From: a virus
Lineage: Duplodnaviria; Caudoviricetes
Length of the DNA stretch: 64,000 bases
Strand: one strand, 5' to 3'
Virus record (IMG/VR): IMGVR_UViG_3300032223_000402
Coordinates: 2,218 to 66,217 of that record
Notes under the pieces: model-generated
The model's database searches: none
What the model was told of the DNA's origin: nothing
What the model saw: the letters and a program-made list of their open reading frames with translations, nothing else
Position numbers and translations under genes: made by a program
Part shown: positions 1,387 through 14,362 of the stretch, one piece after another
How positions within the stretch are numbered: position 1 is the first letter of the stretch
Layout: the number at the start of each line of letters is the position of its first letter

Positions 1387-2424
1387 TTAGTACTTTCTAA
1401 AGATGCTGAATGTACCGTTGCGTACACCTTCAGCTACCATACGTTGTTTGGAACTGTGGATCTTAGAAGCTAGTTTCTCAGAAAGGTTAGTGCCTACTCT
1501 AATAATACTGTCGTTTGCTTGTGGAAGCAGTCTGTCACGTTCTGCATCAATCTCAGCCTGCGATGCCTGCGGAGCAGGAGCCGCTGCGGTTTTCTTATTG
1601 CGTGTACGTTTTGGCTTAGTTACTGGTTCACCAGCAGGTGCTGTTGTAGTTGCTGCATCTGCAGGTGCTGCTGTTGTAGCAGGAGGTGCTTCAGGAGCAG
1701 GTGCTGCGTCTGCTGCTGGAGCTGTATTTGTTTTGCTTACAGGAGCATTAGCCATTGTGTTTGGCTCTTTGCCTTGTAGAGTGTTTGCCATTGAACCAAA
1801 TGCGCCTGCGCCTGCATCACCAGCTGCTGCATCAGGTGCTGGTTTAGCTGCTTTGTCAGTCTGTGCTTTCTTGGCCATAACTGCATCTAGATTCTTTTTA
1901 ACGCTGTTTAGGTCACGTGTTCTTAGTTGTGGTAACAGTTTGTTAATCTGACCAACTGTTACCTTTGCTTGTTTTTCTTCAGCTGCTGCTTTTGCAGGAT
2001 CAGCAGCAGGAGCTGTTGTATTACCTGGCGCTGCATTTTGAGTCGTGTTTACATTTACGTTAGTTGGAGTAGGGTTACCGCCATTACCGCCCATACTGTT
2101 ACCAGTACCATTAGGGCCAGCTGCTCCGCCAGCACCACCTTGTCCTTGACCGTTGGCTGCACCTTGAGCTGCGTCTGCTGGTTGTTCTGCATCAGCGGCA
2201 TCTGGATATGGATCAGCATCGCCAGCAACTGTGGCTTTACCTGTGGCGTATCCTTTCTTAAATGCTCGGCCCATTCCGGCAACACCACCAGCTACAGCAC
2301 CAACTCCGTGTGCTACTCCACCAGCTAGTTTGCCGACTCCAGTGCCAAGAGCACCTAAAGGGCCTTCTTCAAGATGTTGCATTTCTTGAATTTCTGATTC
2401 AGTTAATAATTCTGTTATTTTCAT
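1387..2424 (-). CDS. Ala/Pro/Gly-rich low-complexity protein, possible head-internal/ejected protein
   Basis: 345-aa ORF with AGGA SD and an upstream TAAATA late-promoter-like motif. N-terminus MKITELLTESEIQE...LEEG. Confidence 0.75.
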   Translation of the reverse strand: MKITELLTESEIQEMQHLEEGPLGALGTGVGKLAGGVAHGVGAVAGGVAGMGRAFKKGYATGKATVAGDADPYPDAADAEQPADAAQGAANGQGQGGAGGAAGPNGTGNSMGGNGGNPTPTNVNVNTTQNAAPGNTTAPAADPAKAAAEEKQAKVTVGQINKLLPQLRTRDLNSVKKNLDAVMAKKAQTDKAAKPAPDAAAGDAGAGAFGSMANTLQGKEPNTMANAPVSKTNTAPAADAAPAPEAPPATTAAPADAATTTAPAGEPVTKPKRTRNKKTAAAPAPQASQAEIDAERDRLLPQANDSIIRVGTNLSEKLASKIHSSKQRMVAEGVRNGTFSIFRKY

Positions 2425-2456
2425 TTTTATAGATTCCTAAACACGCTCAAGTATTT

Positions 2457-2463
2457 TATTTAT
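2457..2463 (-). promoter_or_regulatory. Late promoter-like motif ATAAATA
   Basis: Matches the core of the T4 gp55-dependent TATAAATA, about 32 nt upstream of the ATG at 2424. The same TAAATA core recurs before many structural genes. Confidence 0.55.
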
Positions 2464-2469
2464 CGGAGT

Positions 2470-2562
2470 AATGAGCTAAAGCTCATTTGCGTTTTCGCTA
2501 TCGCTCAACGCATTTTTTCTTTCTTGAACTTATTTAAGATGAATAATAAATGCGAAGCATTT
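2470..2562. repeat. Cluster of three inverted repeats/hairpins
   Basis: AATGAGC-TAAA-GCTCATT (2470-2487); TGCGTT..GC-TATC-GC..AACGCA (2488-2512); AAATGC-GAA-GCATTT (2548-2562). Confidence 0.75.
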
Positions 2563-2564
2563 TT

Positions 2565-2929
2565 TTAGCATTATCTAGATTGTTCAGTCACACTTCGCCC
2601 TTGCGGGCGAAATAGATGTACATTATCTGAGTTGCACAGTACACTCTAGCGTTACAGCGGTTACAGAGGCGGTCATCCGGTACCTCGAGCTGCGTCTTCA
2701 TATGACGGCGGCCTACAAATCAACGCTAACTGACTTGCAGACGTGGGGTTTTTCTCCCCTCATTTTGCCTTTTATATTATTCAAATAACCAAATCGCAGG
2801 TCTTACAAGCGATCATCATCCAATCGGGTAGTGGTTAAGCACCTTTGCGGCAAGGTTTTCCGTCCCTGTGTACACGAAGACCAGGTTTAGAGCGCACGAA
2901 ATTAGGCCTGCGCTAGCCAAAAAACCGCT
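2565..2929 (-). ncRNA. Putative large structured non-coding RNA, family not recognised
   Basis: No ORF in the track. At least 7 stems, including TTCGCCC-GCAA-GGGCGAA (GNRA loop on the minus strand) and a 10-bp stem with 2 G-U pairs only on the minus strand. Predicted pseudoknot (2723-2728 with 2647-2652) and a long-range 7-bp helix. Boundaries approximate. Confidence 0.6.
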
Positions 2930-3364
2930 TTATTTTGCCTTTTTGTGTTCTTCTAGACGCTGTCTAAGTATATTTGAACCGCCAACTCTGACGTTTATAA
3001 TGCCATTATAGTAGTCATCTGACTCTAAAACTCTGCGTTCAAACTGCTCTCTAGCCTCTAAATACGACATTTCTGCCTTGGATTTGCAAAGGTAAAGTAT
3101 TTCTCTTGTGAAGTTTTCCGGACCTAATGCTTGGACGTCTGCGTTTAACCTATCAGATGAACCATAGTAATCGCGCCAATCGCTTTCTACTGTGCTTCTT
3201 CTTTTAAGTTTTTTGCCTTTGAGTGGAGGTTTAGTACGTTTAAATTGTGCTAATTTCTTGCCTATGTACTTCTGTCCGGTGGTGTTATTCGTGATGATAT
3301 AAACAAAGCCAATGTAGCCTTCTGGAATTTCGTTTAATATTTGATTTTGATACGTCCATTGCAC
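2930..3364 (-). CDS. Stand-alone GIY-YIG nuclease
   Basis: GFVYIITN...KYIGKK, YYGSS, E..Q and YYN motifs of GIY-YIG. 144 aa with no separate C-terminal DNA-binding domain. GTG start. Confidence 0.85.
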   Translation of the reverse strand: MQWTYQNQILNEIPEGYIGFVYIITNNTTGQKYIGKKLAQFKRTKPPLKGKKLKRRSTVESDWRDYYGSSDRLNADVQALGPENFTREILYLCKSKAEMSYLEAREQFERRVLESDDYYNGIINVRVGGSNILRQRLEEHKKAK

Positions 3365-3595
3365 TCACTTAGTTACCTTGGGTGGTCTACCCAACTTGCC
3401 TTTTCTGGCTAACTTGCGTTCTTCGCGCTTTTCTTGTATCTCAACTCGCCTTTTACTTGCCTGATTGCGTATTTCTGAAAGCCAAAATCGTGCTTTGATA
3501 CCTGCCTCGTCAGAGCCTTTGTATTCAAATCGTTCCTGCCATTTAAAGTATTCCTGAAAAGCAGCGATCATTTCATCGTGACTTTCTGTACTCAT
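3365..3595 (-). CDS. Small basic Hc1-like DNA-binding protein with AT-hook-like C-terminus
   Basis: F..KG...AG.KAR..L.E......R.E pattern like histone-like Hc1 phage homologs. C-terminal KLGRPPK. Confidence 0.55.
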   Translation of the reverse strand: MSTESHDEMIAAFQEYFKWQERFEYKGSDEAGIKARFWLSEIRNQASKRRVEIQEKREERKLARKGKLGRPPKVTK

Positions 3596-4140
3596 TGTAG
3601 ATTAGGACCTGTGTAGAATTTTGTTAGAGTTATTCGTTGACCTTGCGTTACAGGAGTGACCCTATGTACAATCCAACTAGGAAATACTAAGATAGTTCCT
3701 GGAACACCAAACTCAACGATCTCTTTTGAGCCGTTTAAAAATAATTCAAACTTGCCGCCTGTGTAATTGCCTTCTGATAGATTTAGTAGTGCTGTTAGTT
3801 TTATGTCAAATGGACGATTCTTTACGCCGTCCTTGTGCCAATCGTATTCGCCTTGGTTGCTTTCATCGTAGGTATTATAGTTTAACACTTCGTAGTGTGA
3901 GGTTTCAAATAAATTAAAGCCAAAGTATTCTTTATTAAGGTCTAGTACTGTGTTATGAAATTTTTCTAGTAGATGTTGAGCCTGAAAATAGTTAAAACAT
4001 TTAACTGATGCTGTTTTTGTTATAACATCAGCTGGTTGATCACCAACTCCGATATCAGGTAACCCTTTGATCAGAGTTCTCAGTGTTGATAATTCTGAGG
4101 ATGAATAACGTCCTCTTAGATAAACATAGTCACTGTTCAA
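3592..4140 (-). CDS. 2OG-Fe(II) oxygenase (prolyl-hydroxylase-like)
   Basis: YDWHKD (HxD), GG.F, FPS..VHRVTPVT.G.R motifs. Confidence 0.85.
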   Translation of the reverse strand: MNSDYVYLRGRYSSSELSTLRTLIKGLPDIGVGDQPADVITKTASVKCFNYFQAQHLLEKFHNTVLDLNKEYFGFNLFETSHYEVLNYNTYDESNQGEYDWHKDGVKNRPFDIKLTALLNLSEGNYTGGKFELFLNGSKEIVEFGVPGTILVFPSWIVHRVTPVTQGQRITLTKFYTGPNLQ

Positions 4141-4757
4141 GGTTCTTTCCCGAGAAATACATTGCCTGACACTGATATGCGAGTTTCATCGCTGCCAAAG
4201 AACGGATAAACACAATGTCTTAGCAGACTAGGGAACATCATAGTTTCACCTATGCTGTGTTTGTTAACACCCATAGTTGCACCTTGTGTTCTACCTAGTA
4301 TATCTGTATAGGTAAACTCTAATTGACCTGAGAATCTGTCTTTTGTTTCGTCAACACAGTCAGGGATACGTAGCCAAATAGTGTAACTTAGCACACCTCC
4401 GTGCATATGGTTAGGAATAAACTCTCCAGCCTTTTGAAAATTGATCCACGGACGCTCACAATAGTATTGTGGAGGAATCTTAGGAGCATCAAACGTTGCA
4501 AGATACTGACAGGTTTCTCTATATCGTACTGTACAGGCTAGGATATATTCTTTTAGATCTTTTTCAGTATCTGTAGTAAATCGATAATGCTTAGGAACAC
4601 CAGGTGATGAAAGGCCAGACATAGTTTCTTCGGCAGAATCTACATCCTTTTCTATTTGTTCTACTTCTGCTAACATTTTAATCAACAAATCTTTAGGAAC
4701 CCTTGCCCTGAGCAGGTTCATATTTGTCAATGCTACGTTAACACTTTCGATATTCAC
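4137..4757 (-). CDS. Putative 2OG-Fe(II) oxygenase
   Basis: WINFQ..GEF.PNHMH, FPS.L.HCVYPF and RISVSGN motifs typical of phage 2OG oxygenases. Confidence 0.8.
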   Translation of the reverse strand: MNIESVNVALTNMNLLRARVPKDLLIKMLAEVEQIEKDVDSAEETMSGLSSPGVPKHYRFTTDTEKDLKEYILACTVRYRETCQYLATFDAPKIPPQYYCERPWINFQKAGEFIPNHMHGGVLSYTIWLRIPDCVDETKDRFSGQLEFTYTDILGRTQGATMGVNKHSIGETMMFPSLLRHCVYPFFGSDETRISVSGNVFLGKEP

Positions 4758-6532
4758 GCTACAATCTCCACATCATTGCTGTAACTTGTAAAGCCGTTTT
4801 CTTTGATAACCTTAAGCACGTGATTTACACGACTTGTTAGGTCATCTCTATGTGAAATTAAGAATACATTCTTATCGCGTTCACGAGTCATCTTCTTAAG
4901 CACAGCAATACTAGACTCAACTCCGCTGGCGTCCATACCCGAATCAACTAATTCGTCAATGAATAACAGATTAATACTGTGGTATAGGTTCTCCCATACA
5001 TCGCGGAATGCCCACGACATACTGAGTATCAATCGGTTACGTTCACCACGTGACAGATTATCAAAGTCTAGGTCCTGCCCTAGCTGTGTAATAATAACAC
5101 TTAGGTCGTTTTGAAACTCAACAATGTGCGGCAAGCCGATCTTGTCAAGATAATAAGTTAGACGTTGATTTAAGAACGCTAGGTTTTGATCAATAATACG
5201 TTTGCGTACAAAACTATCTTTGTTTGTTAGTAGTTTGTACAGGAATTCTTGATGCTCTTTAACACGTACCAAGGTATTAACAGCTTCCCAGTCAATTTCC
5301 TGTACGGCTGTGCTACGTAGTTCTTCGATTTGTTCCTGATAAGGATTTGTTTCGCCTTCTTTGAGCATTAAATCCTTTTCAAGACTTTCGATTGTGTTCT
5401 TGTGATTCAGTGCTTGCTCTAATGTATCATAGAATACCTTAGGCATCACACCTAGCTCGCCAATTTCTTTAACAGCATCAGTTAGTTCTATCCACTGTGT
5501 ATTAGTCGCCAAGGCCTGTAATGCAGCTTCTTGTAGAGATTTCTTTTTGCTTTCTAATACTTCCTCGTGTTTGCTATCGTGTAGATCCTGACCGCAGGCA
5601 TAACACTTGTGATCTTCTAGATCTTTGATCTCTTTCTTTAGCTTTTCAACTTGCTTTTCTTCACGAGCCATATCTGCTTCTGCACGAGCAATGGTTTTGT
5701 TTAGATCTGCAAGATCTTTTTGTTTGTTATTGTATTCTGTAAGTGCTCTATGATTGGCAATTTCAGCTTCTGCGTCAATGTGACTCAAATGATCGATACT
5801 TTTTAAAATGTTCTCGACGTTTTTTTCTTTTGTATCATCCCACATTTTCTGTTTGCGCTCTAATGCTTCGATGCTTTGCTGAATGCGTTCGTTGCTGATT
5901 TTGATAGTTTCAATACGAGTGTTTTCTGTTTGAATATTGTCTTTGCTTTGTCGTATTTGTTCTTTGAGTGCTTCTGCTTTTTCACTTAGTAGTGTAATAC
6001 CCAACAACTGTTCGATGATATTGCGCTGATCGGCAGCCTTCATCGATAAGAATGGTTCAGTATAGGTGTTTAATGCCACAAGATGTTTGAACATCTCGTG
6101 ACTCATACTAATCATTTCTTCAATGGCTTTTTGTGTTTCACGGCTGTCGCCTTGACTTTCATCAAGATCTGAAAGCTCTTGTTCTTGACCATTGATGCTA
6201 AACTTCAATACGTTGGGTTTACGCCCACGCTCGATGTGATATTCCTGCCCATCTTTTTCAAATGTAACAGTAACCAGCATTCCTTTGCTGTTAATTTTGT
6301 TGATAAGATTATCACGTTTGATATTAGTTAGGGCCTGCCCGTAGATTGCATAGCTAAGACCGTTGATGATAGTAGTCTTACCTGTGCCGTTACGAGCGCC
6401 ACTGTCATCTCCTCCTAGATCTAGATTTTCACCTAAGACGAGAGTAAGCTGACCTTTATCAAAGTCGATGGCCTGGGTTTGATTGCCCACGCTCATAAAA
6501 TTACGTACAGTTAGGTTTTTTATCTTTATCAT
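4754..6532 (-). CDS. gp46-like recombination ATPase (Rad50/SbcC family)
   Basis: Walker A NGTGKT, coiled coil with CYAC zinc hook, LSRGE signature, LFIDE Walker B, ISH. Confidence 0.95.
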   Translation of the reverse strand: MIKIKNLTVRNFMSVGNQTQAIDFDKGQLTLVLGENLDLGGDDSGARNGTGKTTIINGLSYAIYGQALTNIKRDNLINKINSKGMLVTVTFEKDGQEYHIERGRKPNVLKFSINGQEQELSDLDESQGDSRETQKAIEEMISMSHEMFKHLVALNTYTEPFLSMKAADQRNIIEQLLGITLLSEKAEALKEQIRQSKDNIQTENTRIETIKISNERIQQSIEALERKQKMWDDTKEKNVENILKSIDHLSHIDAEAEIANHRALTEYNNKQKDLADLNKTIARAEADMAREEKQVEKLKKEIKDLEDHKCYACGQDLHDSKHEEVLESKKKSLQEAALQALATNTQWIELTDAVKEIGELGVMPKVFYDTLEQALNHKNTIESLEKDLMLKEGETNPYQEQIEELRSTAVQEIDWEAVNTLVRVKEHQEFLYKLLTNKDSFVRKRIIDQNLAFLNQRLTYYLDKIGLPHIVEFQNDLSVIITQLGQDLDFDNLSRGERNRLILSMSWAFRDVWENLYHSINLLFIDELVDSGMDASGVESSIAVLKKMTRERDKNVFLISHRDDLTSRVNHVLKVIKENGFTSYSNDVEIVA

Positions 6533-7539
6533 AGTTCTTTGTAAATCTCCAATAACATCCCTTTGTCGTAGCTGTCGCTTTCAATAGCATTGATCTGATT
6601 CATTACGATAGTGTCAACACTTTCAAAATTAATGTCTAACGGCACAGCATTAGATTCTATTTCTACCTTTTCTGGAATTAACATCAGTTCACGCAGATTA
6701 TACTGCGGAATAAACTGTTCCTTAATAAAATTAGCTTCTTCAAACGTGATAGGCAAATCAATTGTCACACGGCAATGCATCTTTTCACGCAACAACTTTT
6801 CTGGACTGTCAATGATTTGACTTAGTTTATAGGTTCTAAATGTAGGTTGACCTGGCCAAGTGTGATATTCAGGCTTGCCTCCCCACTCTAAGATCATCAT
6901 TCCTCGATCATCATCGCCCGCATCTGCATAGTTATGTGGAAACGCATTACCGATATAGGTAATGTTGCCTTTGCTTTGACGTTTATGGAAGTGACCGCTG
7001 AATACATATTCTTGATTTGTGAAATGATCACCTTGCAACTGTCCGTGATCTGGCATTTGCACCATTGCATTCATATAAAACAATGGCAATTCAAAGTGAC
7101 CAAATATGTAACGACTCTTTAGTTTAGGTACAGTTTTCCATTCTTCTCCAACTAACCAAGGCATAATAGTTACATCGCCTTCTGTTAGTGTTTCTTTGAT
7201 TGGAACTACGTTTGGAAACAACCGCATAAACTCAACAGAGTTGATTTCACGTTTGTCTTTATAGAATAAGTCGTGATTGCCTAGAATGAAATATACTTTT
7301 TCAAATGATTGGCTCAGACGCTCTAAATTACTGACTGTGTAGTTCATTGTACTAACATCGGTGGTTGAACGATTATGGTGCCAGTCGCCTAGAAAGATAC
7401 AGGTTTCTGCACCTTGGGCTTTTGCATTTTCACAGAACCAAGTTACAAACTCCTCGCAGTCTTGGTTGTGAGTTCTACTACCGGATTTTAGTCCGAAATG
7501 TATATCGGTAAAACACGCTGCTTTTTTAAATAATGACAT
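6529..7539 (-). CDS. gp47-like recombination nuclease (Mre11/SbcD family)
   Basis: Metallophosphoesterase motifs DIH, GDW, GNHD, GHF, GHFH. Translationally coupled to the gp46-like gene. Confidence 0.95.
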   Translation of the reverse strand: MSLFKKAACFTDIHFGLKSGSRTHNQDCEEFVTWFCENAKAQGAETCIFLGDWHHNRSTTDVSTMNYTVSNLERLSQSFEKVYFILGNHDLFYKDKREINSVEFMRLFPNVVPIKETLTEGDVTIMPWLVGEEWKTVPKLKSRYIFGHFELPLFYMNAMVQMPDHGQLQGDHFTNQEYVFSGHFHKRQSKGNITYIGNAFPHNYADAGDDDRGMMILEWGGKPEYHTWPGQPTFRTYKLSQIIDSPEKLLREKMHCRVTIDLPITFEEANFIKEQFIPQYNLRELMLIPEKVEIESNAVPLDINFESVDTIVMNQINAIESDSYDKGMLLEIYKEL

Positions 7540-7555
7540 TTTGATCTCCTTTAAT

Positions 7556-7585
7556 ATTGTACTACATTTACAACACTAAGGTCAA
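7556..7585 (-). promoter_or_regulatory. Sigma70-type promoter for the gp47-gp46 operon
   Basis: TTGACC-N18-TACAAT on the minus strand, followed by an AGGAG SD (7546-7550). Confidence 0.6.
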
Positions 7586-8439
7586 TCGAAACTTTCTCCA
7601 TCCCCGCCTGTAACCGGTAGTGAAGGACCAGCAACAGTTGGGCTCGAACCTGAATTTTGTCTAGTCCAACTTGGAGTCATACCATTCATTTCAAGGATGT
7701 CGTCTCTAATATTTTGATTACGCTTTTCAATGTTAATGATCCGTACAAAGCTGTTAGTAACGGCAGCAGTATAATAAGCGAAAGGATTATCAGACTTGCT
7801 TTCATCGAACTGAAGCCCGATTTGAGTAAGCTGAAGAATGGCCTGTCCCCGCATTTCATCATTATAGGTATATCCTCTAACGTTACCTCTGGTAGCATAT
7901 CGTTCGCATAATTTGATAAACATACGAGCTAAATTATCTGTCATCTGTCCGTGGTCTTTGCTGAAGTATCCATTTGATAATCCGCCTTTCCAATGACTTT
8001 TCCCAACGCAGATCAAGTTACCTTGATCGTCATATTTCCAATGTTGGAACGGAGGAAAATTAACTTTGTCGTGACTGTCAGCGGTATTTTTAAGAGTCTT
8101 TTTACGACCAGGAGCAAGAGGAATGTGTTCAAAAGTCATAACACGGAATACTACATCGTGTTTGGCAACTTTTTTATAATCTATTTCAAAGTCCTTTGCT
8201 GGCAGCTTTTTACCGCCCGCTAGCACAGCAGTTTCGTGTGCTTGTTTTGACATCTTAGCAGCACGGTTTCTTTTGGCTTCTGCAACAGTACGTACATTCA
8301 GCTTATCTAGGCTAGTAATAATTAAATCGTAATCTGAATATTCTGGTGCTAAGAAACTACAATATGTATTTTTACTTCTGTGGATCTCTTTAAGAAGATC
8401 TTTGTTGGTTAGGTACTTTATTTTTGGTATAATGGTCAT
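7582..8439 (-). CDS. gp55-like late transcription sigma factor
   Basis: N-terminal YLTNKDLL. C-terminal GYTYNDEM...FDESKSDNPFAYYT matches gp55 family motifs. Adjacent to gp47/gp46 as in T4. Confidence 0.85.
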   Translation of the reverse strand: MTIIPKIKYLTNKDLLKEIHRSKNTYCSFLAPEYSDYDLIITSLDKLNVRTVAEAKRNRAAKMSKQAHETAVLAGGKKLPAKDFEIDYKKVAKHDVVFRVMTFEHIPLAPGRKKTLKNTADSHDKVNFPPFQHWKYDDQGNLICVGKSHWKGGLSNGYFSKDHGQMTDNLARMFIKLCERYATRGNVRGYTYNDEMRGQAILQLTQIGLQFDESKSDNPFAYYTAAVTNSFVRIINIEKRNQNIRDDILEMNGMTPSWTRQNSGSSPTVAGPSLPVTGGDGESFD

Positions 8440-8488
8440 TGGTTATGGGTTCTCCTACTACTTATTATAATAGCACATTTTGTTTAGA

Positions 8489-8495
8489 ATAAATA
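8489..8495 (+). promoter_or_regulatory. Late promoter-like motif ATAAATA heading the baseplate module
   Basis: TAAATA core 27 nt upstream of the ATG at 8523, followed by an AAGGA SD. Confidence 0.55.
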
Positions 8496-8522
8496 GAGTA
8501 TCGACAAGGAAAATCACTCAAA

Positions 8523-9656
8523 ATGGCCGGACTTTCATTAAATCCTTTATCACAGTTGGTTAATCAAGCCAGCTCGTCTATCCAAGCATCTATTGCCTCT
8601 GCGCAAAGTCAAGCACCTGCGATAGGAGACGCTCTAGGTAAACTTAACCTTGACAACGTTGTTAACCAAGCATCAGGCGGCCTAGGTAGCGGCCTAAACG
8701 GTCTAACTGGAAACATAACATCGGGACTTGGAAATCTAACCACCTTAGCCGGTACTTCGATCCCCGGTGCAAGCGCATTTGGTGGAATAGCCAGTACCGT
8801 ACAGTCTAGCGTTGGCGGAGCAATTAATAGTTTACAGTCTGTGGCAGCAAACACCAGTAACATTACTTCAGATATTTCTGGTAGCATCGGAAAATTAACT
8901 GGCGGTAACTTAGCAGGTGGCTTAATGAGTATTGCTGGATCGATATCTTCAGCAGCAGGAATGCTAAACAATTTGCTTAGCCTTACTAGAGGAAAAAATC
9001 TACCCGCAGGCGGTGAACTAGCTCTTAAACAAAGCCCTGCAATTAAGTTGAATCCAAATAATCCCAATGATTGGCGAGTAAGAATCAATGCCAATTGGCC
9101 GATCTTCCAAGGCAATGCGTGGTTTGCATTATTAGATAGATCCGGTGGCGTAGTTTGGCCCTACACACCTACAATCACAGTTTCAACAAAAGCAGAATAC
9201 ACAACAGTTCAGCCAACACATAGTAACTATAACTATATGTCATACAAAAACAGCACAGTTGATGACATTCAAATTTCAGGCGAATTTAGCTGTGAAACTG
9301 AAACAGATGCGGCTTATTGGATTGCTGCAACAATGTTCTTTAAGACAGCTACAAAAATGTTTTTTGGTTCAGGAGACAACGCAGGTAACCCTCCCATTGT
9401 TTGTAACTTGTCTGGTTACGGTTCTCATATTTTTGACAATGTTCCGGTAGTTATTAAATCATTTTCTGTAGATCTTAAAGATGATGTCAACTATATTAAC
9501 TGCGGCATTAATGGTGCCAATACCTGGGTTCCAACTTCTAGCACAATCACAGTTACAGTAACTCCGGTTTACAATAGAAGACGTTTGCGCCAATTCAACT
9601 TAAATGACTACGCCAAAGGCCGCGTAGCCGGTTCACCGGGTGTAGGATACATCTAA
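8523..9656 (+). CDS. Baseplate/tail-tube initiator-like protein (gp48/gp54-type) with Gly/Ser-rich N-terminus
   Basis: C-terminal half has a tube-fold pattern (WPYTP.I, GNPP.VC.L.GYG...F.NVPVVI.SF). First gene of the baseplate module. Confidence 0.6.
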   Translation: MAGLSLNPLSQLVNQASSSIQASIASAQSQAPAIGDALGKLNLDNVVNQASGGLGSGLNGLTGNITSGLGNLTTLAGTSIPGASAFGGIASTVQSSVGGAINSLQSVAANTSNITSDISGSIGKLTGGNLAGGLMSIAGSISSAAGMLNNLLSLTRGKNLPAGGELALKQSPAIKLNPNNPNDWRVRINANWPIFQGNAWFALLDRSGGVVWPYTPTITVSTKAEYTTVQPTHSNYNYMSYKNSTVDDIQISGEFSCETETDAAYWIAATMFFKTATKMFFGSGDNAGNPPIVCNLSGYGSHIFDNVPVVIKSFSVDLKDDVNYINCGINGANTWVPTSSTITVTVTPVYNRRRLRQFNLNDYAKGRVAGSPGVGYI

Positions 9657-9657
9657 T

Positions 9658-9960
9658 ATGGCATCACGATACGCAAAATCTAGTCCTTGGTCTTCAACCC
9701 TAGAAAATAATTTTAATCTTGAGTTGTTAGAAATTAGACCAGTACCTGCAGAAGCAGATGATTTTCTGTACACTATTGAAAACCATTACAAGCATCGTCC
9801 TGATTTGTTGTCTTATGATTTGTACGGAACACCGAAACTTTGGTGGGTATTCGTTCAACGCAATATGAGCGTTATTAGAGACCCAATTTATGATTTTGAA
9901 CCAGGTGTTCAGATTTATATCCCTAAAAGATCTAACTTAGAAAAATTTCTAGGATTGTAA
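9658..9960 (+). CDS. gp53-like baseplate wedge (LysM-like) protein
   Basis: RPDLLSYDLYG.P.LWWVF...N and G..IYIP pattern. Confidence 0.8.
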   Translation: MASRYAKSSPWSSTLENNFNLELLEIRPVPAEADDFLYTIENHYKHRPDLLSYDLYGTPKLWWVFVQRNMSVIRDPIYDFEPGVQIYIPKRSNLEKFLGL

Positions 9961-9961
9961 A

Positions 9962-12331
9962 ATGTCAATTAGAGATCTAGGAATTATAAACAATCTAATA
10001 ACCAAACCAGATGGGACTGGAGTACTCAATGGATTACTATCCACAGCATCGGTCACGGGCGTTGTTGAAAGAGTTACGGGTTTAAATCCTGCAAGAGCAA
10101 TAGATACAATCACCAACGGAGTTAGCTCGGTATTTACAGCACCTAATAAAACAGCGACTTCTGGTGGTAAAAATCTAACAGGTATTATTTTTAATCCTTT
10201 AGAGCAGTTTGCATCTTATACTCCGTTATGGACGATGGCCTGCCTTACTCCGCAACAATTCAATAATCCAGTGTCATACCGCAATAGTCCTGCTGCTCTA
10301 CAACACGTGGTATTTGCCTCAGCAGGCCGATATGACAGTCAGCGTGTGCAGACATTGTATGGTACTCCTGAATATTATGTTAATAATTTTACGATGCAAT
10401 CTGTGGTTGCTTCGTCTGAAAAAGTTGGCAATAGTAATGCCGTTAAATTTAATTTTGAAATCTATGAACCTTATAGTATGGGAATACTATTACAGAGTTT
10501 AGAAGTTGCCGCTAAGAAAGCAGGATATGTAAACTACCTGCAAAATGCACCATATGTTCTTAGATTAGACATTCAAGGATATGACGAAGATGGAAAAATA
10601 TATACCACAGTTAAACCTAAATTCTGGACACTAAAACTAACCAGTTGTAAATTTTCTGTAACTGAGTCAGGCAGTACCTATAAGGTAGAAGCTATTCCTT
10701 ATAATCATCACGGATTCAGTGATGCAATTAACGTTGCCTATAACGATGTTGCCATTGCAGCTTCAACAACTAAAACAGGACAATTTGACGCCGGCACGGT
10801 TGGAGATTTATTGGTCACAGGAGAAAAGAGTCTAATTAGGTTTCTCAACGATAACGAAGAAAAATTAAAAAAAGAAAAATTAATAACCTATCCTGACATC
10901 TATGAAATTCAATTTCCAACAGAGTCAAATGAATTTTATACAAACAATCCTCCATTGACAACGCCTCCTAAAGCCACTGTAGATCCTAACGCCGCTCCGC
11001 CGAAAGAAGCAGTTGCCGGAGCTTCCCTTGGAATAGAAACAGCAAACTTTGGTAGAAATGCTATCTCAACAAGCGACCTTGGATTTACTCAAAGTCAAGG
11101 TGGTAATTTCCGATTTAAGAAAAATGACGAGAGAGATCCCAAAACTGGAAAAGTTAAACGTGACAATATGACCATTGATCCTAAGACACGTAACTTCCAG
11201 TTTGCACAAGGACAGAGTCTTACAGCAATTATAAATCAGGTTATTGTAAGTTCTGATTATGCGATTGCGGCCTTAGATCCAAACAATAAACAGAATGGTT
11301 TTATCAAATGGTTTAAATTAGATGTACAAGTACAGCTTCAGGCAGATAAATTTGATCCGCTAACCGGTGACTATGCGATGAAGATAATTTATCGTGTAGT
11401 TCCTTTCTTAGTACACGAAAGTATTTTTGAACCGCCTACCTCAGCCTCTGCAGGTTACAACGAATTAGAAAAGAAAATTAAAAAAGCCTATAATTATATC
11501 TACACTGGTAAGAACGTTGATATATTAAAATTTGATATTGAAATTAACAATTTGTTTTACTCAGGTGTAAATCCCAGCAACGAATCTAAAACAGGAACAG
11601 CTGGTGATCCTAATCAACAAGGTGTACAAAATAATCCGCAGACAAAAGTCTCTGCCGGTAAAGGCGATCAATCTAAAGAAGCATTAACTGCTAATCTTGG
11701 AAGATCAAGACCTCGTCGAGATCCTGAATTATTAAAAAGCACAGTTGGTGGTAGTACAGCCGGAAGTACAGAAAGACAGGTTGCAAAAAACTTTCAAGAA
11801 TCTATTCTTAAAGGCACAAGTGCTGATATGTTTACGTTATCTCTCGAAATATTAGGAGATACGTACTGGATGATAGATAGCGGAATGTCTAACTATTTTT
11901 CTAAACCAGTAAGTCCAGGTGCACTGATTACCGAAGACGGTACAATGAATTATGAAGGTACTGATGTTTACATTTACATCAGTTTTAAGACACCAGTTGA
12001 CCTAAACGAAAATACTGGCCTATATGATTTTCCAGCAGATGCATCTATTGAAAGTCCGTTCAGCGGAATCTATCGCGTGGTAATGTGTGATAATATGTTC
12101 AATGACGGCCTTTTCAAACAAAAATTAAAATGTGTGAGAATGCCAGCACAGCCACAAGATTTCAACGGCAAGGCACTAACACAAGAAAAACAAAACTCTG
12201 TAAACAGAGTGTTGGAAGGTAAGGTACCAGATGCTAAATCTCCAGAGGACGCTCCGCAAGACACTGGTCCTACTACAAAAGCAGAAGCAGTAGCATCTAA
12301 TAATAATAACAATGGATGGGGTGAAGGTTAA
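9962..12331 (+). CDS. Putative baseplate hub protein (gp27/gpD-like)
   Basis: Position between the gp53- and gp5-like genes. C-terminal LEILGD and FSGIY.V...N.F..G.FKQ.L pattern. Confidence 0.55.
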   Translation: MSIRDLGIINNLITKPDGTGVLNGLLSTASVTGVVERVTGLNPARAIDTITNGVSSVFTAPNKTATSGGKNLTGIIFNPLEQFASYTPLWTMACLTPQQFNNPVSYRNSPAALQHVVFASAGRYDSQRVQTLYGTPEYYVNNFTMQSVVASSEKVGNSNAVKFNFEIYEPYSMGILLQSLEVAAKKAGYVNYLQNAPYVLRLDIQGYDEDGKIYTTVKPKFWTLKLTSCKFSVTESGSTYKVEAIPYNHHGFSDAINVAYNDVAIAASTTKTGQFDAGTVGDLLVTGEKSLIRFLNDNEEKLKKEKLITYPDIYEIQFPTESNEFYTNNPPLTTPPKATVDPNAAPPKEAVAGASLGIETANFGRNAISTSDLGFTQSQGGNFRFKKNDERDPKTGKVKRDNMTIDPKTRNFQFAQGQSLTAIINQVIVSSDYAIAALDPNNKQNGFIKWFKLDVQVQLQADKFDPLTGDYAMKIIYRVVPFLVHESIFEPPTSASAGYNELEKKIKKAYNYIYTGKNVDILKFDIEINNLFYSGVNPSNESKTGTAGDPNQQGVQNNPQTKVSAGKGDQSKEALTANLGRSRPRRDPELLKSTVGGSTAGSTERQVAKNFQESILKGTSADMFTLSLEILGDTYWMIDSGMSNYFSKPVSPGALITEDGTMNYEGTDVYIYISFKTPVDLNENTGLYDFPADASIESPFSGIYRVVMCDNMFNDGLFKQKLKCVRMPAQPQDFNGKALTQEKQNSVNRVLEGKVPDAKSPEDAPQDTGPTTKAEAVASNNNNNGWGEG

Positions 12332-13914
12332 TGGCAGAATATTCAAGACCGACGGACGACTTAATAAAACACTCCGATATGGGCTCTGGGCTGTATACAG
12401 CCAGAGTAGTAAGTCATCTTGATCCTAGTTTTATGGGAGATCTCGAAGTCACTTTGTTAAGAGAGCAAGGCAATACTGTAGGCGACGACAGTCAGACTTT
12501 TGTTGTTCGCTTTGCCAGTCCTTTCTTTGGCTATACTGGTTTTGAGTATATGGGACAAAACAAAGCCGATTTCAACGACACACAAAAATCTTACGGTATG
12601 TGGTTTGTTCCGCCTGATGTAGGAGTTACAGTTTTAGTTTCGTTTGTCAACGGTGACCCAGGACAAGGTTATTGGTTTGCTTGTATTCCTCCTAGATTTG
12701 CTAATCAAATGGTGCCAGCGATTGCAGGAACAACGCAGGTAGAATTAACCACAGAAGACAATAAAAAGTTTAATACTAAGATGCCGTTGCCAACCGGCGA
12801 GATGAATAAAAAGATCAATGCAGATCCGGGCGATAAAGGCGAAAGTAGCATTGACACTGATAAGATTAAAAAAGCAGTACATCCTATTGCAGATGCATTT
12901 CTTAGACAGGGACTATTAGAAGATGATGTCCGTGGTGTAACTACAACATCGGCAAGACGAGAAGTGCCTAGTATGGTATTTGGTATTAGCACTCCTGGGC
13001 CATTAGATCGTCGTCCTGGTGCAAAGAAAGGTTCACAAGGCAAAGACAAAGATCAAACACCAACACCGGTTCCAGTTAGTAGACTAGGCGGAACAACATT
13101 GGTAATGGATGACGGCGATGATCGCTATCAACGTAAAACCCCAGCAAAGACAGGGCCGGTTGAATATGTTGATTCTTTAGAAAATAAACCAACCACAAGC
13201 GGTCAACCTGATATTCCATACAATGAATATTTCCGTGTTCGCACAAGAACAGGTCATCAGATCCTGATGCACAACAGTGAAGATTTAATCTACATTGCCA
13301 ATGCTCAAGGAACCGCTTGGGTAGAATTAACTGCTAACGGTAAGATTGATATCTATGCTGCTGATAGTATTAGTATCCACACCGAAGCAGATTTAAACAT
13401 ACGTGCTGATCGTGACATTAATATGGAAGCTGGCCGTAACATTAATATGAAAACTGAAACGGGTCGTTGGCACGCTGAAGTAGCCACCGACTTAGAATTT
13501 TTAGTCAATGCAGAAGCAAAGATTACAGTAGGTCAAAATTTCCAGTTATTAGTTGGACAGGCTACAAAAATTTCCAGCAACACAAATTGCGAAATTAACA
13601 GCAACAATGATAATTTATTCAGTGCAGGAAACAATACAAATATTGGTAGCGGCGGTAATCATATCGAGTCTGCAACTAAGATCTATATGAATAGCATTGC
13701 CGCAACTCCTGCAACAGTCGCTGATTTCGTACAGCCTTTGGAATTAAGACCGAACGCATCGACTTCAATAGAAGTTGGTTGGAATCCTAAAAAATATCAG
13801 GCTGGGGTAATGAAAAGCATTATGAAACGCATACCGATGCACGAGCCTTGGTTGCTTCACGAAAATATGGCTCCGCAATTAATGACACCTGAAGAAACAG
13901 ATAGAGAGGTATAA
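12331..13914 (+). CDS. gp5/Vgr-like baseplate central spike
   Basis: N-terminal OB-fold (ARVV...DP..MG.L.V; GMWFVPPDVG..VLV.F.NGD), RTRTGH, and beta-helix repeats near the C-terminus. No lysozyme domain seen. Confidence 0.8.
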   Translation: MAEYSRPTDDLIKHSDMGSGLYTARVVSHLDPSFMGDLEVTLLREQGNTVGDDSQTFVVRFASPFFGYTGFEYMGQNKADFNDTQKSYGMWFVPPDVGVTVLVSFVNGDPGQGYWFACIPPRFANQMVPAIAGTTQVELTTEDNKKFNTKMPLPTGEMNKKINADPGDKGESSIDTDKIKKAVHPIADAFLRQGLLEDDVRGVTTTSARREVPSMVFGISTPGPLDRRPGAKKGSQGKDKDQTPTPVPVSRLGGTTLVMDDGDDRYQRKTPAKTGPVEYVDSLENKPTTSGQPDIPYNEYFRVRTRTGHQILMHNSEDLIYIANAQGTAWVELTANGKIDIYAADSISIHTEADLNIRADRDINMEAGRNINMKTETGRWHAEVATDLEFLVNAEAKITVGQNFQLLVGQATKISSNTNCEINSNNDNLFSAGNNTNIGSGGNHIESATKIYMNSIAATPATVADFVQPLELRPNASTSIEVGWNPKKYQAGVMKSIMKRIPMHEPWLLHENMAPQLMTPEETDREV

Positions 13915-13915
13915 T

Positions 13916-14362
13916 ATGGCTGTACTAAAAAGACTTTACAACACTAAAACTGTAGCTACTAACAAAGCATCTGTTGGTTCACAGGGAAATAATTCCTTTA
14001 CCTATAGAGGATTTAATTCACAAGAATCTGCAACTAATTACAAGCTCTATGATATGGATCTAGTCAAGCAAGATATTATGAATCATTTCCATATCCGCAA
14101 AGGAGAAAAATTAGAAAATCCAGATTTTGGTACAGTTATCTGGGATATGCTGTTTGAACCTTTCACAGAAGATGTTAAAAGAATTATTTCCAAGGACGTA
14201 GAAGATATTATTAACTATGATCCGAGAATCGCAGTAAACGCTGTAACCGTAGACACCACAGAGCAGGGCATTAGAATACAAGCGGACCTAGTGTATATTC
14301 CGTTTAATATTAATGAACGTATGACCTTTGACTTTGATAAAGCCAACTCTATCATTAAGTAA
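13916..14362 (+). CDS. gp25-like baseplate wedge subunit
   Basis: KGEK..NPDFG...W..LFEP and I.YDPRI motifs. Confidence 0.9.
   Translation: MAVLKRLYNTKTVATNKASVGSQGNNSFTYRGFNSQESATNYKLYDMDLVKQDIMNHFHIRKGEKLENPDFGTVIWDMLFEPFTEDVKRIISKDVEDIINYDPRIAVNAVTVDTTEQGIRIQADLVYIPFNINERMTFDFDKANSIIK

What the first reader, a model, noticed from the sequence alone, without database searches (positions are those of the whole stretch)
2565..3364. Stand-alone GIY-YIG nuclease immediately followed by a ~360-nt pseudoknotted RNA-like element: candidate nuclease-RNA system
Seen in sequence: this is the only large non-coding gap in 64 kb, and it begins at the GIY-YIG stop codon on the same strand. Read on the minus strand it folds into consecutive stems: AGCGCA/TGCGCT (2891-2914), CCTG/CAGG (2865-2885), ACCTT/AAGGT (2841-2856), GATCGC/GCGATT (2792-2814), GGGG/CCCC (2745-2759), CTGCAAGTCA/TGATTTGTAG (2713-2740), GAGG-CGG/CCG-CCTC (2666-2686) and TTCGCCC-GCAA-GGGCGAA (2594-2611). 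The G-U wobbles and the GNRA loop work only on the minus strand. The loop UAGCGU (2728-2723) is complementary to ACGCUA (2652-2647), suggesting a pseudoknot. The 5' end AGCGGUU (2929-2923) can pair with AACCGCU (2662-2656). Established: homing GIY-YIG enzymes such as I-TevI carry separate DNA-binding domains, and some compact nucleases use a linked RNA (IscB/HEARO-omegaRNA). This 144-aa protein has only the nuclease core plus a very basic insert (KRTKPPLKGKKLKRR). Inference: this may be an undescribed RNP (RNA-scaffolded or RNA-guided nuclease), a ribozyme, or a primer/R-loop RNA. I do not recognise it as tRNA, tmRNA, RNase P or an intron.
Basis: partly seen in the sequence, partly recalled or inferred. 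Interest (0 to 1): 0.85.

Follow-up and report, generated by a model that had tools for sequence, protein, structure and literature searches.

The report
Large phage RNA beside GIY-YIG nuclease
The gap after this small phage nuclease gene encodes a real, roughly 460-base folded RNA whose first third is an already catalogued RNA motif, and the evidence says the RNA works independently of the nuclease rather than guiding it.

Summary
2425-2929 is the only ORF-free gap of 150 nt or more in the window.

The element is only partly new. 2783-2918(-) is a full-length match to Rfam RF01718, Polynucleobacter-1 (102 bits). The rest is a conserved extension that I did not find in Rfam or in the papers searched:
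- a 5' pseudoknot that starts 2 nt after the stop codon;
- a pseudoknotted second domain (96.7% of cells paired, 29 of 38 pairs compensatory);
- a third domain with two boxes that are identical within each genome (126 of 132).

In these freshwater T4-like phages the nuclease gene sits upstream in 97 of 99 loci. Three results argue against a nuclease-RNA particle:
- The whole RNA also occurs in Burkholderiales genomes, and 0 of 4 of them carry this nuclease family.
- Two phage loci have other genes in the nuclease's place.
- The nuclease family is in 560 phage records, and 4 of 4 checked lack the RNA.
No guide-like unpaired variable segment was seen.

The best reading is an independent large RNA of unknown function, co-transcribed behind a Seg-type DNA endonuclease.

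The parts
2930..3364 (-). 144-aa single-domain GIY-YIG nuclease gene (SegE-type). It has a GTG start directly after the stop codon of the preceding 76-aa ORF.
   Evidence: Pfam PF19835, profile 1-123 of 123, E 7e-37. PHROG 447 E 1e-40, and weaker 'homing endonuclease' PHROGs. In 45 homologues the invariant residues include G19, Y22, Y33, G35, E103 and N120, and R56, E88 and R105 are at least 90% conserved. AlphaFold model pLDDT 90.4; the best PDB fold match is the I-TevI catalytic domain, 1LN0, but it is weak (E 0.63).
2470..2929 (-). The whole conserved structured non-coding RNA region, about 460 nt in three domains plus 3' hairpins.
   Evidence: It is conserved end to end at 70-84% identity in related viral contigs. 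It is collinear with bacterial copies. There are 95 predicted pairs, 35 with compensatory changes.
2924..2928 (-). 5' strand of a pseudoknot not in the Rfam model (GCGGU). It starts 2 nt after the stop codon and pairs with 2847-2851 in the loop of the third hairpin of domain 1.
   Evidence: Mutual information. Pair count: 85.4% paired against 72.2% shuffled, 0 of 500 shuffles as high, 4 of 4 pairs compensatory. Helix variants include GCGG/CCGC, GCAG/CTGC, TACAG/CTGTA, TCGCCAA/TTGGCGA and CTGCCA/TGGCAG. Bacterial copies have CTACCG/CGGTAG.
2783..2918 (-). Domain 1: Polynucleobacter-1 RNA motif (Rfam RF01718).
   Evidence: 102.4 bits against a gathering score of 37, model 1-141 of 141. Helices: 93.4% paired against 80.5% shuffled, 20 of 25 pairs compensatory, on MAFFT alignment A2.
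2745..2759 (-). Hairpin H1 (GGGG/CCCC), at the start of domain 2.
   Evidence: 4 of 4 pairs compensatory, 99.5% paired.
2711..2742 (-). Hairpin H2: a 12-bp stem that varies in sequence but is always paired. Its loop (2723-2728) forms the pseudoknot.
   Evidence: 12 of 12 pairs compensatory.
2647..2652 (-). 3' strand of the domain-2 pseudoknot (ACGCUA). It pairs with 2723-2728.
   Evidence: 7 of 7 pairs compensatory in a helix that was not part of the aligning model. Many variants are visible by eye in A2.
2655..2707 (-). Core of domain 2: small hairpin H3 (2693-2707), closing helix H4 (2689-2692 with 2655-2658) and the near-invariant hairpin H5 (2666-2686).
   Evidence: H4 has 4 of 4 compensatory pairs. 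H5 is invariant or compensatory. There is a weak, sub-threshold resemblance to Rfam cow-rumen-2 (20.8 bits against a gathering score of 66, E 0.24).
2622..2633 (-). Box a (AACUCAGAUAAU), the first of two matched boxes in domain 3.
   Evidence: The 7-nt core equals that of box d in 126 of 132 distinct segments across 10 haplotypes. Shuffled mean 21.8, maximum 35. Identity-type mutual information.
2594..2611 (-). GC-rich hairpin between the two boxes. Its 5' strand (2608-2612) can pair alternatively with the H3 loop (2696-2700).
   Evidence: Covariation in the stem. The column of 2699 is complementary to the stem's 5' column and identical to its 3' column in three base combinations.
2570..2581 (-). 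Box d (AAUCUAGAUAAU), the second matched box.
   Evidence: Bacterial copies keep the same rule (CUCAG.../UCUAG... in one genome, CUCGG.../UCUGG... in two others).
2489..2511 (-). Hairpin with the conserved loop GAGCG-NN-AGCGAAA. This is the block best conserved between phage and bacterial copies.
   Evidence: Stem covaries. nhmmer finds it in the bacterial loci. Shown in the alignment.
2470..2487 (-). Terminal hairpin. It is terminator-like in relatives, where a U-run follows.
   Evidence: Covariation. The pattern scan finds it on the + strand.
2457..2463 (-). Invariant ATAAATA just before the next gene (1387-2424). It resembles the T4 late-promoter core; that consensus is recalled, not tested here.
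   Evidence: Invariant in 23 of 23 sequences.

Best explanation
The gap encodes a large (about 460 nt) three-domain structured RNA, transcribed on the minus strand as the 3' continuation of the nuclease gene's transcript.

Domain 1 is the catalogued Polynucleobacter-1 motif. It is closed by a 5' pseudoknot that is not in the Rfam model and that starts 2 nt after the stop codon. Domain 2 is a compact pseudoknotted three-way junction with a near-invariant core. Domain 3 carries two boxes of about 12 nt, identical to each other within every genome, on either side of a GC hairpin. Three small hairpins follow, the last of which is terminator-like.

The RNA is a functional unit of its own. It is shared by a lineage of freshwater T4-like phages (nearest cultured relative by the nuclease: Methylophilales phage Melnitz) and by genomic islands of small-genome Burkholderiales. 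It does not need the GIY-YIG protein.

The GIY-YIG protein is a conserved, single-domain, Seg-type DNA endonuclease that acts on DNA. I infer that its position beside the RNA gene reflects a DNA-level relation of the kind described for SegB beside tRNA genes in T-even phages (preferred inheritance or amplification of a neighbouring RNA gene), or plain conserved gene order. I do not think it reflects a ribonucleoprotein.

What the RNA does is not shown. My inferred guess is a stable trans-acting scaffold or decoy RNA. Its two matched boxes would be twin binding sites for one sequence-specific partner. The competing pairings (H3 loop against the hairpin stem) suggest a conformational change on binding.
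For: SHOWN:
- Full-length RF01718 match.
- Strong covariation in domain 1, domain 2 with its pseudoknot and the 5' pseudoknot.
- Conservation and covariation through to about 2470.
- Box identity in 126 of 132 segments.
- No sigma-70-like promoter on the minus strand between 3700 and 2380, and the structure starts 2 nt after the stop codon. Together these imply co-transcription.
- In one RNA library, contigs of relatives bridge the stop codon (run X17, records 8 and 9). This is weak, because DNA carry-over is not excluded.

INDEPENDENCE OF THE RNA FROM THE NUCLEASE:
- RF01718 is over the cut-off in 3 of 151 sampled genomes of one order.
- The bacterial copies are collinear with the phage RNA over all three domains.
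- 0 of 4 of these genomes have PF19835 (positive control).
- In bacteria the upstream neighbour is a divergent DUF6641 gene, and the two downstream ORFs compared are unrelated to each other.
- L320 and L222 have other genes upstream of the RNA.
- Seven of 20 unusual GIY loci lack domain 1 at the gathering score. L070-type loci replace domains 1 and 2 with another conserved sequence but keep domain 3.
- The nuclease family is in 560 phage records, and 4 of 4 checked lack the RNA.

THE NUCLEASE IS MAINTAINED:
- 92 distinct proteins from 97 matches, almost all (90 of 92) within 139-148 aa, with catalytic motifs conserved.

PRECEDENT:
- SegB is enriched next to tRNA genes and amplifies them (PMC13096335; I read the abstract and section 10).
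- T4 SegB sits in and targets the tRNA region (PMC2988022, passages).
Against: - The adjacency is very tight: 97 of 99 loci, and 90 at a fixed distance. It persists while the small flanking ORFs vary. That is more than I would expect from neutral gene order.
- One of the two exceptions carries a different nuclease (PDDEXK_15) in the same place. This fits a 'nuclease plus RNA' pairing as well as it fits a homing hot spot.
- The protein lacks the C-terminal DNA-binding domain of the characterised Seg enzymes, so how it finds a DNA site is unexplained.
- No experiment or read-level data show a discrete stable RNA. The contigs laid cannot show ends or abundance.
- The bacterial sample is small: three clear copies and one weak one. 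Two of the clear copies lie on contigs of 2.9 kb and 1.1 kb, which could be misbinned.
- The scaffold or decoy function is a guess. The matched boxes have no identified partner.
Confidence: 0.7

Rival explanations
1. Nuclease-RNA particle. The single-domain GIY-YIG protein binds the downstream RNA, which scaffolds or directs it. This would compensate for its missing DNA-binding domain.
For: - Adjacency in 97 of 99 loci, with a fixed spacing in 90.
- The protein is a nuclease core with a basic beta-hairpin and no DNA-binding domain.
- The RNA starts 2 nt after the stop codon, so the two are made from one transcript.
- Another nuclease family occupies the same slot in L320.
Against: - The RNA is present in 4 bacterial genomes with 0 of 4 carrying the family, and behind a non-nuclease ORF in L222.
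- The family is widespread without the RNA (560 records; 4 of 4 checked lack it).
- GIY loci exist that lack domain 1, or domains 1 and 2.
- There is no unpaired hypervariable guide-like segment; variable positions are compensated within the RNA.
- RNA and nuclease similarity are uncoupled.
Confidence: 0.08
2. Homing hot spot. The nuclease genes (GIY-YIG, and PDDEXK in L320) are selfish free-standing endonucleases. Their recognition site lies in the highly conserved DNA of the RNA gene, so they are copied in next to it and drag it along by co-conversion. The RNA has no functional tie to them.
For: - Two unrelated nuclease families sit in the same slot.
- GIY identity departs from that of flanking genes in some loci: L312 and L319 have GIY 84-89% with gp46 55-63%, and L308 has GIY 55% with gp46 75%.
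- PADLOC and PHROG label relatives as homing endonucleases.
- T4 Seg enzymes cut in the neighbouring gene (Table 1 of PMC2988022, passage seen).
Against: - The gene is nearly fixed rather than sporadic (97 of 99).
- It is intact in nearly all matches: 97 matches gave 92 distinct proteins, 90 of them within 139-148 aa.
- Overall it diverges in step with gp46 (r = 0.82).
- It lacks the DNA-binding domain that gives Seg enzymes their site preference.
- No nuclease-free 'empty site' allele with the RNA directly behind gp46 was seen.
Confidence: 0.2
3. Cis-acting regulatory RNA (riboswitch or attenuator), as proposed for Polynucleobacter-1 in 2010. A ligand or factor bound by domains 1 and 2 would change the pairing of domain 3 and so control read-through into the downstream gene.
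For: - Weinberg et al. 2010 list the motif as a likely cis-regulator and a possible switch (table passage in PMC2864571).
- There are mutually exclusive pairings, both supported by covariation (H3 loop against the stem of hairpin 2594-2611).
- In bacteria and in this window an ORF follows on the same strand.
Against: - Downstream genes are unrelated between loci (BLASTP E 2.4 between the two bacterial ORFs; p345 is found in few phage loci).
- In many phage loci the next gene is the convergent gp26-like gene, so nothing lies downstream to regulate.
- In the window a terminator-like hairpin and a separate late-promoter-like ATAAATA lie between the RNA and the next ORF.
- At about 460 nt with three domains it is much larger than the riboswitches I recall.
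Confidence: 0.12
4. Self-processing ribozyme. The near-invariant pseudoknotted core of domain 2, or domain 1, cleaves the transcript to free the RNA from the nuclease mRNA.
For: - About 26 nt of the core are near-invariant, although that stretch was my selection anchor.
- The pseudoknotted architecture begins right at the stop codon.
- Some mechanism is needed to release the RNA from a read-through transcript.
Against: - No Rfam ribozyme family matches even at E = 10 over 2380-3000.
- In the one RNA run laid that covers this junction, contigs bridge it.
- Nothing here tests catalysis.
Confidence: 0.05

Closest known systems
Polynucleobacter-1 RNA motif (Rfam RF01718; Weinberg et al. 2010, PMC2864571)
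   Same: Positions 2783-2918(-) are a full-length member above the threshold. The habitat matches (Burkholderiales, fresh water or estuary). The helices match and covary.
   Different: The Rfam model covers 141 positions. Here, and in the bacterial copies, it is only the first third of a collinear RNA of about 460 nt. There is an extra 5' pseudoknot, a second pseudoknotted domain and a third domain with matched boxes. Most copies seen here are in T4-like phage contigs, behind a protein gene. I could not see the 2010 supplement, which may describe more.
SegB (a GIY-YIG homing endonuclease) beside tRNA genes in T-even and other myoviruses (PMC2988022; PMC13096335)
   Same: A Seg-type GIY-YIG gene sits directly beside genes for structured RNA in T4-like phages. 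The authors suggest that enzyme has been 'domesticated'. It acts on DNA and promotes inheritance or amplification of the RNA genes.
   Different: This protein has 144 aa and lacks the C-terminal DNA-binding domain. Its neighbour is not a tRNA (0 tRNAs in the window). No cleavage, homing or amplification is shown here.
IscB or TnpB with omega RNA (the OMEGA systems; HEARO RNA, RF02033)
   Same: A compact nuclease gene is directly followed by a large structured RNA on the same strand.
   Different: The nuclease fold differs (GIY-YIG, not RuvC/HNH). There is no Rfam HEARO match. No variable guide segment and no transposon ends were noted. The RNA and the protein occur apart. The features of OMEGA systems are recalled; I saw only the listing and abstract start of PMC13565253.
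cow-rumen-2 RNA motif (Rfam RF02947)
   Same: Domain 2 shares, in the same order, a hairpin with a UUAGC loop, a GCCGCC linker, a GGAUGACC hairpin and GUAA (alignment).
   Different: The score is 20.8 bits against a gathering score of 66, E 0.24 on a 621-nt search. This is not a member by Rfam's criterion. Homology is possible but unproven.
Group I intron with an internal GIY-YIG gene (I-TevI type)
   Same: A GIY-YIG gene lies next to a complex structured RNA in a T4-like phage.
   Different: No group I intron match even at E = 10. The ORFs on both sides are complete and the upstream ORF abuts the nuclease gene. The bacterial copies lie in intergenic DNA.

Membership tests
Polynucleobacter-1 RNA (RF01718) | Score at or above Rfam's gathering threshold over the full model | tested here: met
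   102.4 bits against 37, model 1-141 of 141, not truncated.
Polynucleobacter-1 RNA (RF01718) | Model helices kept by compensatory changes in relatives | tested here: met
   25 pairs: 93.4% paired against 80.5% shuffled, 20 compensatory. P3 was left out because the MAFFT columns were inconsistent.
GIY-YIG nuclease superfamily (SegE-type domain, PF19835) | Profile match over the whole domain, and conserved GIY / YIG / Arg / Glu / Asn positions | tested here: met
   E 7e-37, profile 1-123 of 123. In 45 homologues G19, Y22, Y33, G35, E103 and N120 are invariant, and R56, E88 and R105 are at least 90% conserved. Assigning these to catalytic roles rests on recalled I-TevI motifs.
Free-standing Seg-type homing endonuclease | Two-domain build: an N-terminal GIY-YIG domain plus a C-terminal DNA-binding domain | tested here: not met
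   Only 21 residues follow the Pfam domain. The model is one compact domain plus one C-terminal helix.
Free-standing Seg-type homing endonuclease | Sporadic presence among close relatives, and a history that differs from the flanking genes | tested here: inconclusive
   Present in 97 of 99 loci, so not sporadic. But a few loci show GIY identity far from gp46 identity. No trees were built.
Free-standing Seg-type homing endonuclease | Cuts the nuclease-less allele in or near the neighbouring gene, and is preferentially inherited | not testable with these tools
   Needs enzyme assays and mixed infections.
RNA-guided nuclease systems (IscB/TnpB with omega RNA) | Obligate co-occurrence of the nuclease and its RNA | tested here: not met
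   The RNA occurs without the family in 4 of 4 bacterial genomes and in 2 phage loci. The family occurs without the RNA in 4 of 4 cultured-phage loci.
RNA-guided nuclease systems (IscB/TnpB with omega RNA) | An unpaired, hypervariable guide segment at one end of a conserved scaffold | tested here: not met
   In 89-99 aligned sequences the variable stretches are stems and pseudoknot strands with internal partners. The rest are short A-rich linkers. This was judged by eye, not by a dedicated scan.
cow-rumen-2 RNA (RF02947) | Score at or above the gathering threshold | tested here: not met
   20.8 bits against 66.
Group I intron | Match to the intron core, and interruption of a host gene | tested here: not met
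   No match at E <= 10 in 2380-3000. The flanking ORFs are complete.
tRNA / tmRNA | ARAGORN detection | tested here: not met
   0 genes in the window.

The most novel reading that the evidence does not exclude
The element is a new class of large (about 460 nt), modular, doubly pseudoknotted RNA shared between T4-like phages and islands in their likely hosts. One bacterial copy lies 1.5 kb from a Zorya ZorD gene and beside an integrase. The phage copy would act as a mimic or decoy of the host RNA in a defence/counter-defence contest. A neighbouring Seg-type nuclease would keep it in place and spread or amplify it. The two always-identical boxes would be twin docking sites for a partner that co-evolves with each genome. 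A weaker variant of this reading is that the nuclease itself is that partner.
Probability: 0.12. Interest if true: 0.8.

Novelty: new variant of a known kind. Interest (0 to 1): 0.55.

Why it matters
Large bacterial and phage RNAs with complex folds are few. From recall, those studied have mostly turned out to be ribozymes, ribonucleoprotein scaffolds or self-assembling particles.

This analysis suggests that a motif catalogued in 2010 as a 141-nt putative cis-regulator is the first domain of a three-domain RNA of about 460 nt. I found the two extra pseudoknots by covariation. Most copies fetched here are in abundant freshwater T4-like phages. One unusual property stands out: two boxes stay identical to each other within each genome while changing between genomes. 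That gives a concrete handle for finding the RNA's partner, and a clean test case for why Seg-type nucleases sit beside structured-RNA genes.

It also removes a tempting false lead, a GIY-YIG 'RNA-guided nuclease'.

Tried and rejected
1. Long-range pairing of GACGG (domain 1) with CCGUC (domain 2), proposed by RNAalifold. Rejected: in the 89-sequence alignment the domain-1 side varies without compensation, while a local hairpin (CGUY...RACG) fits, with GTT always paired to AAC.

2. It is no better than shuffles, although it appears in the single-sequence minimum-energy fold.

3. A partner for the two boxes.
- A scan for full complements (G-U allowed) within -300 to +520 nt found only the U-rich 3' tail of domain 1, in 38 of 116 sequences. 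This pairing is wobble-rich and would not force the boxes to be identical.
- The box is not clearly enriched elsewhere in the window. The 12-mer with 1 mismatch gave 6 hits against 4.67 expected. The 7-mer gave 24 hits against 16.0 expected, with 2 of 100 shuffles as high.
- This remains unexplained.

4. The boxes as sigma-70 promoters. The scan found none on the minus strand.

5. DUF6641 as the RNA's partner. It is the divergent upstream neighbour at all three bacterial RNA loci that have enough flanking sequence. But 0 of 20 other DUF6641 loci have RF01718 at E <= 1 (one further locus, L356, was not scanned), and the phage record has no DUF6641 (that record is only 19% complete).

6. The genome contigs pattern scan returned 120 loci. 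Bacterial copies were found instead with the genome search.

7. A blastn search of the 1-kb region against cultured phages found no match.

8. An alignment-free test of the 5' pseudoknot was only mildly discriminating: mean longest complement 4.52 in the same sequence against 3.63 between sequences.

9. Metatranscriptome contigs cover the nuclease ORF and the RNA in relatives. They cannot show RNA ends, strand or level, and uncovered stretches mean nothing.

10. My domain-2 model does not detect the bacterial copies, even with filters off. Their homology rests on RF01718, nhmmer blocks and collinear alignment.

11. phmmer of the nuclease against PDB sequences gave no hit at E <= 1. The fold search gave only a weak top hit to I-TevI.

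Supplementary files of papers were not consulted; the supplement of PMC2864571 may hold a fuller description of Polynucleobacter-1.

Papers and what I saw of them:
- PMC2864571: one table passage.
- PMC11701678: one passage.
- PMC13096335: abstract and section 10.
- PMC2988022: passages.
- All others: search listings only.

The statement that the extension is not in print rests on searches and on Rfam 15 only.
Full report
WHAT THE WINDOW IS. The window is most of a 66-kb IMG/VR viral contig, which CheckV estimates at 19% complete. It carries T4-type genes. By my reading of the translations, the ORFs at 4754-6532 and 6529-7539 are gp46/gp47-like and the ORF at 7582-8439 is gp55-like. The ORF 2930-3364(-) is a full-length SegE-type GIY-YIG domain (PF19835, E 7e-37). 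The closest cultured relative of this protein is in Methylophilales phage Melnitz (64% identity, Kyanoviridae). The coded runs that share part of the stretch are mostly labelled freshwater or lake metagenomes (small shares, so this is a hint only).

CHECKING THE OBSERVATION. With ORFs of 70 aa or more, 2425-2929 is the only uncovered stretch of 150 nt or more in 64 kb. A search of the window against Rfam gives one hit above threshold: Polynucleobacter-1, RF01718, at 2783-2918 on the minus strand, 102.4 bits, covering the whole model. ARAGORN finds no tRNA or tmRNA. The minus strand folds better than shuffles (z = -2.42). The plus strand does not (z = -0.76).

RELATIVES. blastn showed that 72 loci, two of them fetched, share all or part of the 505-nt gap. 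These loci include nuclease genes only 50-62% identical to the window's, so the RNA sample is diverse.

DOMAIN 1 AND A FURTHER 5' PSEUDOKNOT.
- On a MAFFT alignment of 89 sequences less than 93% identical (A2), five Rfam helices give 93.4% standard pairs against 80.5% in shuffles. Twenty of 25 pairs have compensatory changes.
- Mutual information then showed that the four bases after the stop codon (GCGG, 2928-2925) covary with CCGC (2850-2847) in the loop of the third hairpin.
- The pair count for this helix is 85.4% against 72.2% (0 of 500 shuffles as high), with 4 of 4 pairs compensatory. This is despite imperfect MAFFT columns.
- Very different helices occur, such as TCGCCAA/TTGGCGA and CTGCCA/TGGCAG. 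The bacterial copies use CTACCG/CGGTAG.
- The folded RNA therefore begins 2 nt after the stop codon. No sigma-70-like promoter lies on the minus strand upstream. The RNA must be made by read-through from the nuclease gene.

DOMAIN 2.
- I built a covariance model from 23 sequences (A3 and R1) and aligned 99 matches to it.
- The proposed structure comprises hairpin H1, the 12-bp hairpin H2, small hairpin H3, closing helix H4 and the near-invariant hairpin H5.
- The whole gives 96.7% standard pairs in 3665 cells against 79.1% in shuffles and 29-51% when partners are slid by 1-3 columns. Twenty-nine of 38 pairs are compensatory, including 7 of 7 in the pseudoknot.
- This domain has only a weak, sub-threshold resemblance to Rfam cow-rumen-2.

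DOMAIN 3 AND THE 3' END.
- Conservation continues to about 2470. It covers a GC hairpin (2594-2611), a small hairpin (2550-2560), a hairpin with the loop GAGCG-NN-AGCGAAA (2489-2511) and a terminal hairpin (2470-2487). All of these have covarying stems.
- An invariant ATAAATA follows, just before the next gene.
- Two features remain unexplained.
- (i) A box of about 12 nt occurs on each side of the GC hairpin (2633-2622 and 2581-2570). The 7-nt cores are identical to each other in 126 of 132 distinct segments, although ten different versions exist among genomes. The shuffled expectation is 21.8. The bacterial copies obey the same rule.
- (ii) The H3 loop can pair with the 5' strand of the GC hairpin. 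One position is complementary to that strand, and identical to the hairpin's own 3' strand, in three base combinations. Two exclusive pairings are therefore both under selection.

IS THE RNA TIED TO THE NUCLEASE? In the phage lineage, yes, in position.
- Of 119 loci, 99 have at least 720 nt upstream. Of these, 97 have a GIY-YIG match of at least 120 aa, and in 90 it ends 215-300 nt before the anchor motif.
- The wider context is gp47, gp46, variable small ORFs, GIY-YIG, the RNA, a variable stretch, and then a convergent gp26-like gene.
- The nuclease is intact in nearly all of these: 92 distinct proteins, 90 of them within 139-148 aa, with conserved motifs.

Several results separate the two.
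- (a) RF01718 is over the cut-off in 3 of 151 sampled genomes of one bacterial order, with a fourth weak hit. These copies are collinear with the phage RNA over all three domains. None of the four genomes has a PF19835 match, while the same search finds the window's own gene.
- (b) There, the upstream neighbour is a divergent DUF6641 gene. The two downstream ORFs compared, from two genomes, are unrelated to each other. One copy lies near an integrase and a Zorya ZorD gene.
- (c) In L320 the slot is filled by a PDDEXK_15 nuclease, and in L222 by an unrelated 175-aa ORF.
- (d) Seven of 20 unusual GIY loci have no domain 1 at the gathering score. A group of loci (L062, L069-L073, L078, L080) has a different conserved sequence of about 330 nt in place of domains 1 and 2 but keeps domain 3, with its own matched box version.
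- (e) The protein family is in 560 cultured-phage records. In Melnitz it sits after the ribonucleotide reductase genes. At four loci examined neither RF01718 nor my domain-2 model matches beside the nuclease gene; the model's one hit at E <= 0.01 lies inside the S-SRM01 nuclease ORF and looks spurious.
- (f) Identity of RNA domain 2 to the window's copy correlates poorly with nuclease identity (r = 0.31), whereas gp46 and nuclease identity correlate at 0.82.

THE PROTEIN. The AlphaFold model built on 45 homologues is confident (pLDDT 90.4). It shows one compact domain, with the basic segment as a beta-hairpin and a C-terminal helix. The best PDB fold match is the I-TevI catalytic domain, but it is weak (E 0.63). 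phmmer against PDB sequences finds nothing. The basic 'insert' lies inside the Pfam domain and is present, usually longer, in the homologues.

EXPRESSION. Six RNA runs hold 8-9% of the sampled words. In the four I laid, contigs of relatives cover the nuclease ORF in all four and parts of the RNA in two (X16, X17). In one run, two contigs bridge the stop codon. Because these are contigs from RNA libraries, they show presence at most. They do not show ends, level or strand.

INTERPRETATION.
- What is shown: a large, modular, doubly pseudoknotted RNA whose first domain is a known motif. It is co-transcribed behind a maintained single-domain GIY-YIG gene in one phage lineage, and it is also present without that gene in bacteria.
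- What I infer: the RNA has its own function, and the nuclease relates to it at the DNA level or merely by gene order. The nearest precedent is SegB, which lies among T4 tRNA genes, targets that region and promotes its inheritance (PMC2988022, passages). SegB was recently shown to be enriched near tRNA genes and to amplify them as an anti-defence measure (PMC13096335, abstract and section 10).
- The scaffold or decoy role for the RNA, and the idea that the twin boxes bind one partner, are guesses that rest only on the anatomy.

NOVELTY. Domain 1 is known. I found no description of the extension, the two additional pseudoknots, the matched boxes or the phage context in Rfam 15 or in full-text searches. 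The 2010 supplement was not visible to me. I rate the element a new variant of a known kind.

Noticed in passing
L070:3436-3770 (also L062, L069, L071-L073, L078, L080): In these relatives the nuclease gene is followed by a different conserved non-coding sequence of about 330 nt, with long invariant blocks. It has no Rfam match at E <= 1 and takes the place of domains 1 and 2. Domain 3 follows as usual, with both boxes reading ACATGAA. This is possibly a second, unrelated structured RNA module.
   Followed up: partly
L320:401-922(-): A PDDEXK_15 'phage putative endonuclease' (PF24608, E 4e-26) sits between gp46 and the RNA, exactly where the GIY-YIG gene lies elsewhere. In L222 the slot holds a 175-aa ORF with no Pfam match.
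   Followed up: partly
L208 (G051:C4:64000-81000), about 5900-14300: The clearest bacterial copy of the RNA lies in an island. The order is a tyrosine recombinase (PF00589), a 224-aa ORF of unknown function, the RNA, a divergent DUF6641 gene, and 1.5 kb further a ZorD-type SNF2/Mrr protein (PADLOC ZorD, 1280 bits).
   Followed up: partly
Genome-search loci L333-L356: DUF6641 is a multi-copy family in small-genome members of this order: 14 of 401 genomes, up to 4 copies each. Only 3 of the 24 loci are next to the RNA.
   Followed up: partly
window 2828 and 2818 (-): Two pyrimidines in domain 1 (in ACUAYCC and GGAYGA) covary in a non-Watson-Crick way. U with C occurs 55 times and C with U 35 times out of 90, and they are never the same base. 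This suggests a tertiary contact or a shared third partner.
   Followed up: no
window 2696-2700 with 2608-2612 (-): The loop of hairpin H3 is complementary to the 5' strand of the GC hairpin's stem. One position covaries in three combinations. This pairing excludes the lower part of the hairpin, so it is a possible conformational switch.
   Followed up: partly
window 3364-3367: The nuclease ORF starts with GTG immediately after the TGA stop of the preceding 76-aa ORF (TGAGTG). This suggests translational coupling. Homologues align from residue 1 or 3.
   Followed up: no
window 1387-2424 (-): The gene after the RNA encodes a 345-aa protein rich in Ala, Gly, Pro and Thr, of low complexity and with no Pfam or PHROG match. 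It is preceded by the invariant ATAAATA. It is found in only a minority of related loci.
   Followed up: no
window 3592-4757 (-): Two adjacent 2OG-Fe(II) oxygenase genes (PF13640 and PF13759) lie between gp46 and the small ORF upstream of the nuclease gene. In most relatives they are absent from this position.
   Followed up: no
phage records: Many GenBank records label homologues of this GIY-YIG protein 'NAD synthetase'. The label also appears on PHROG 447 and looks like a propagated misannotation.
   Followed up: no
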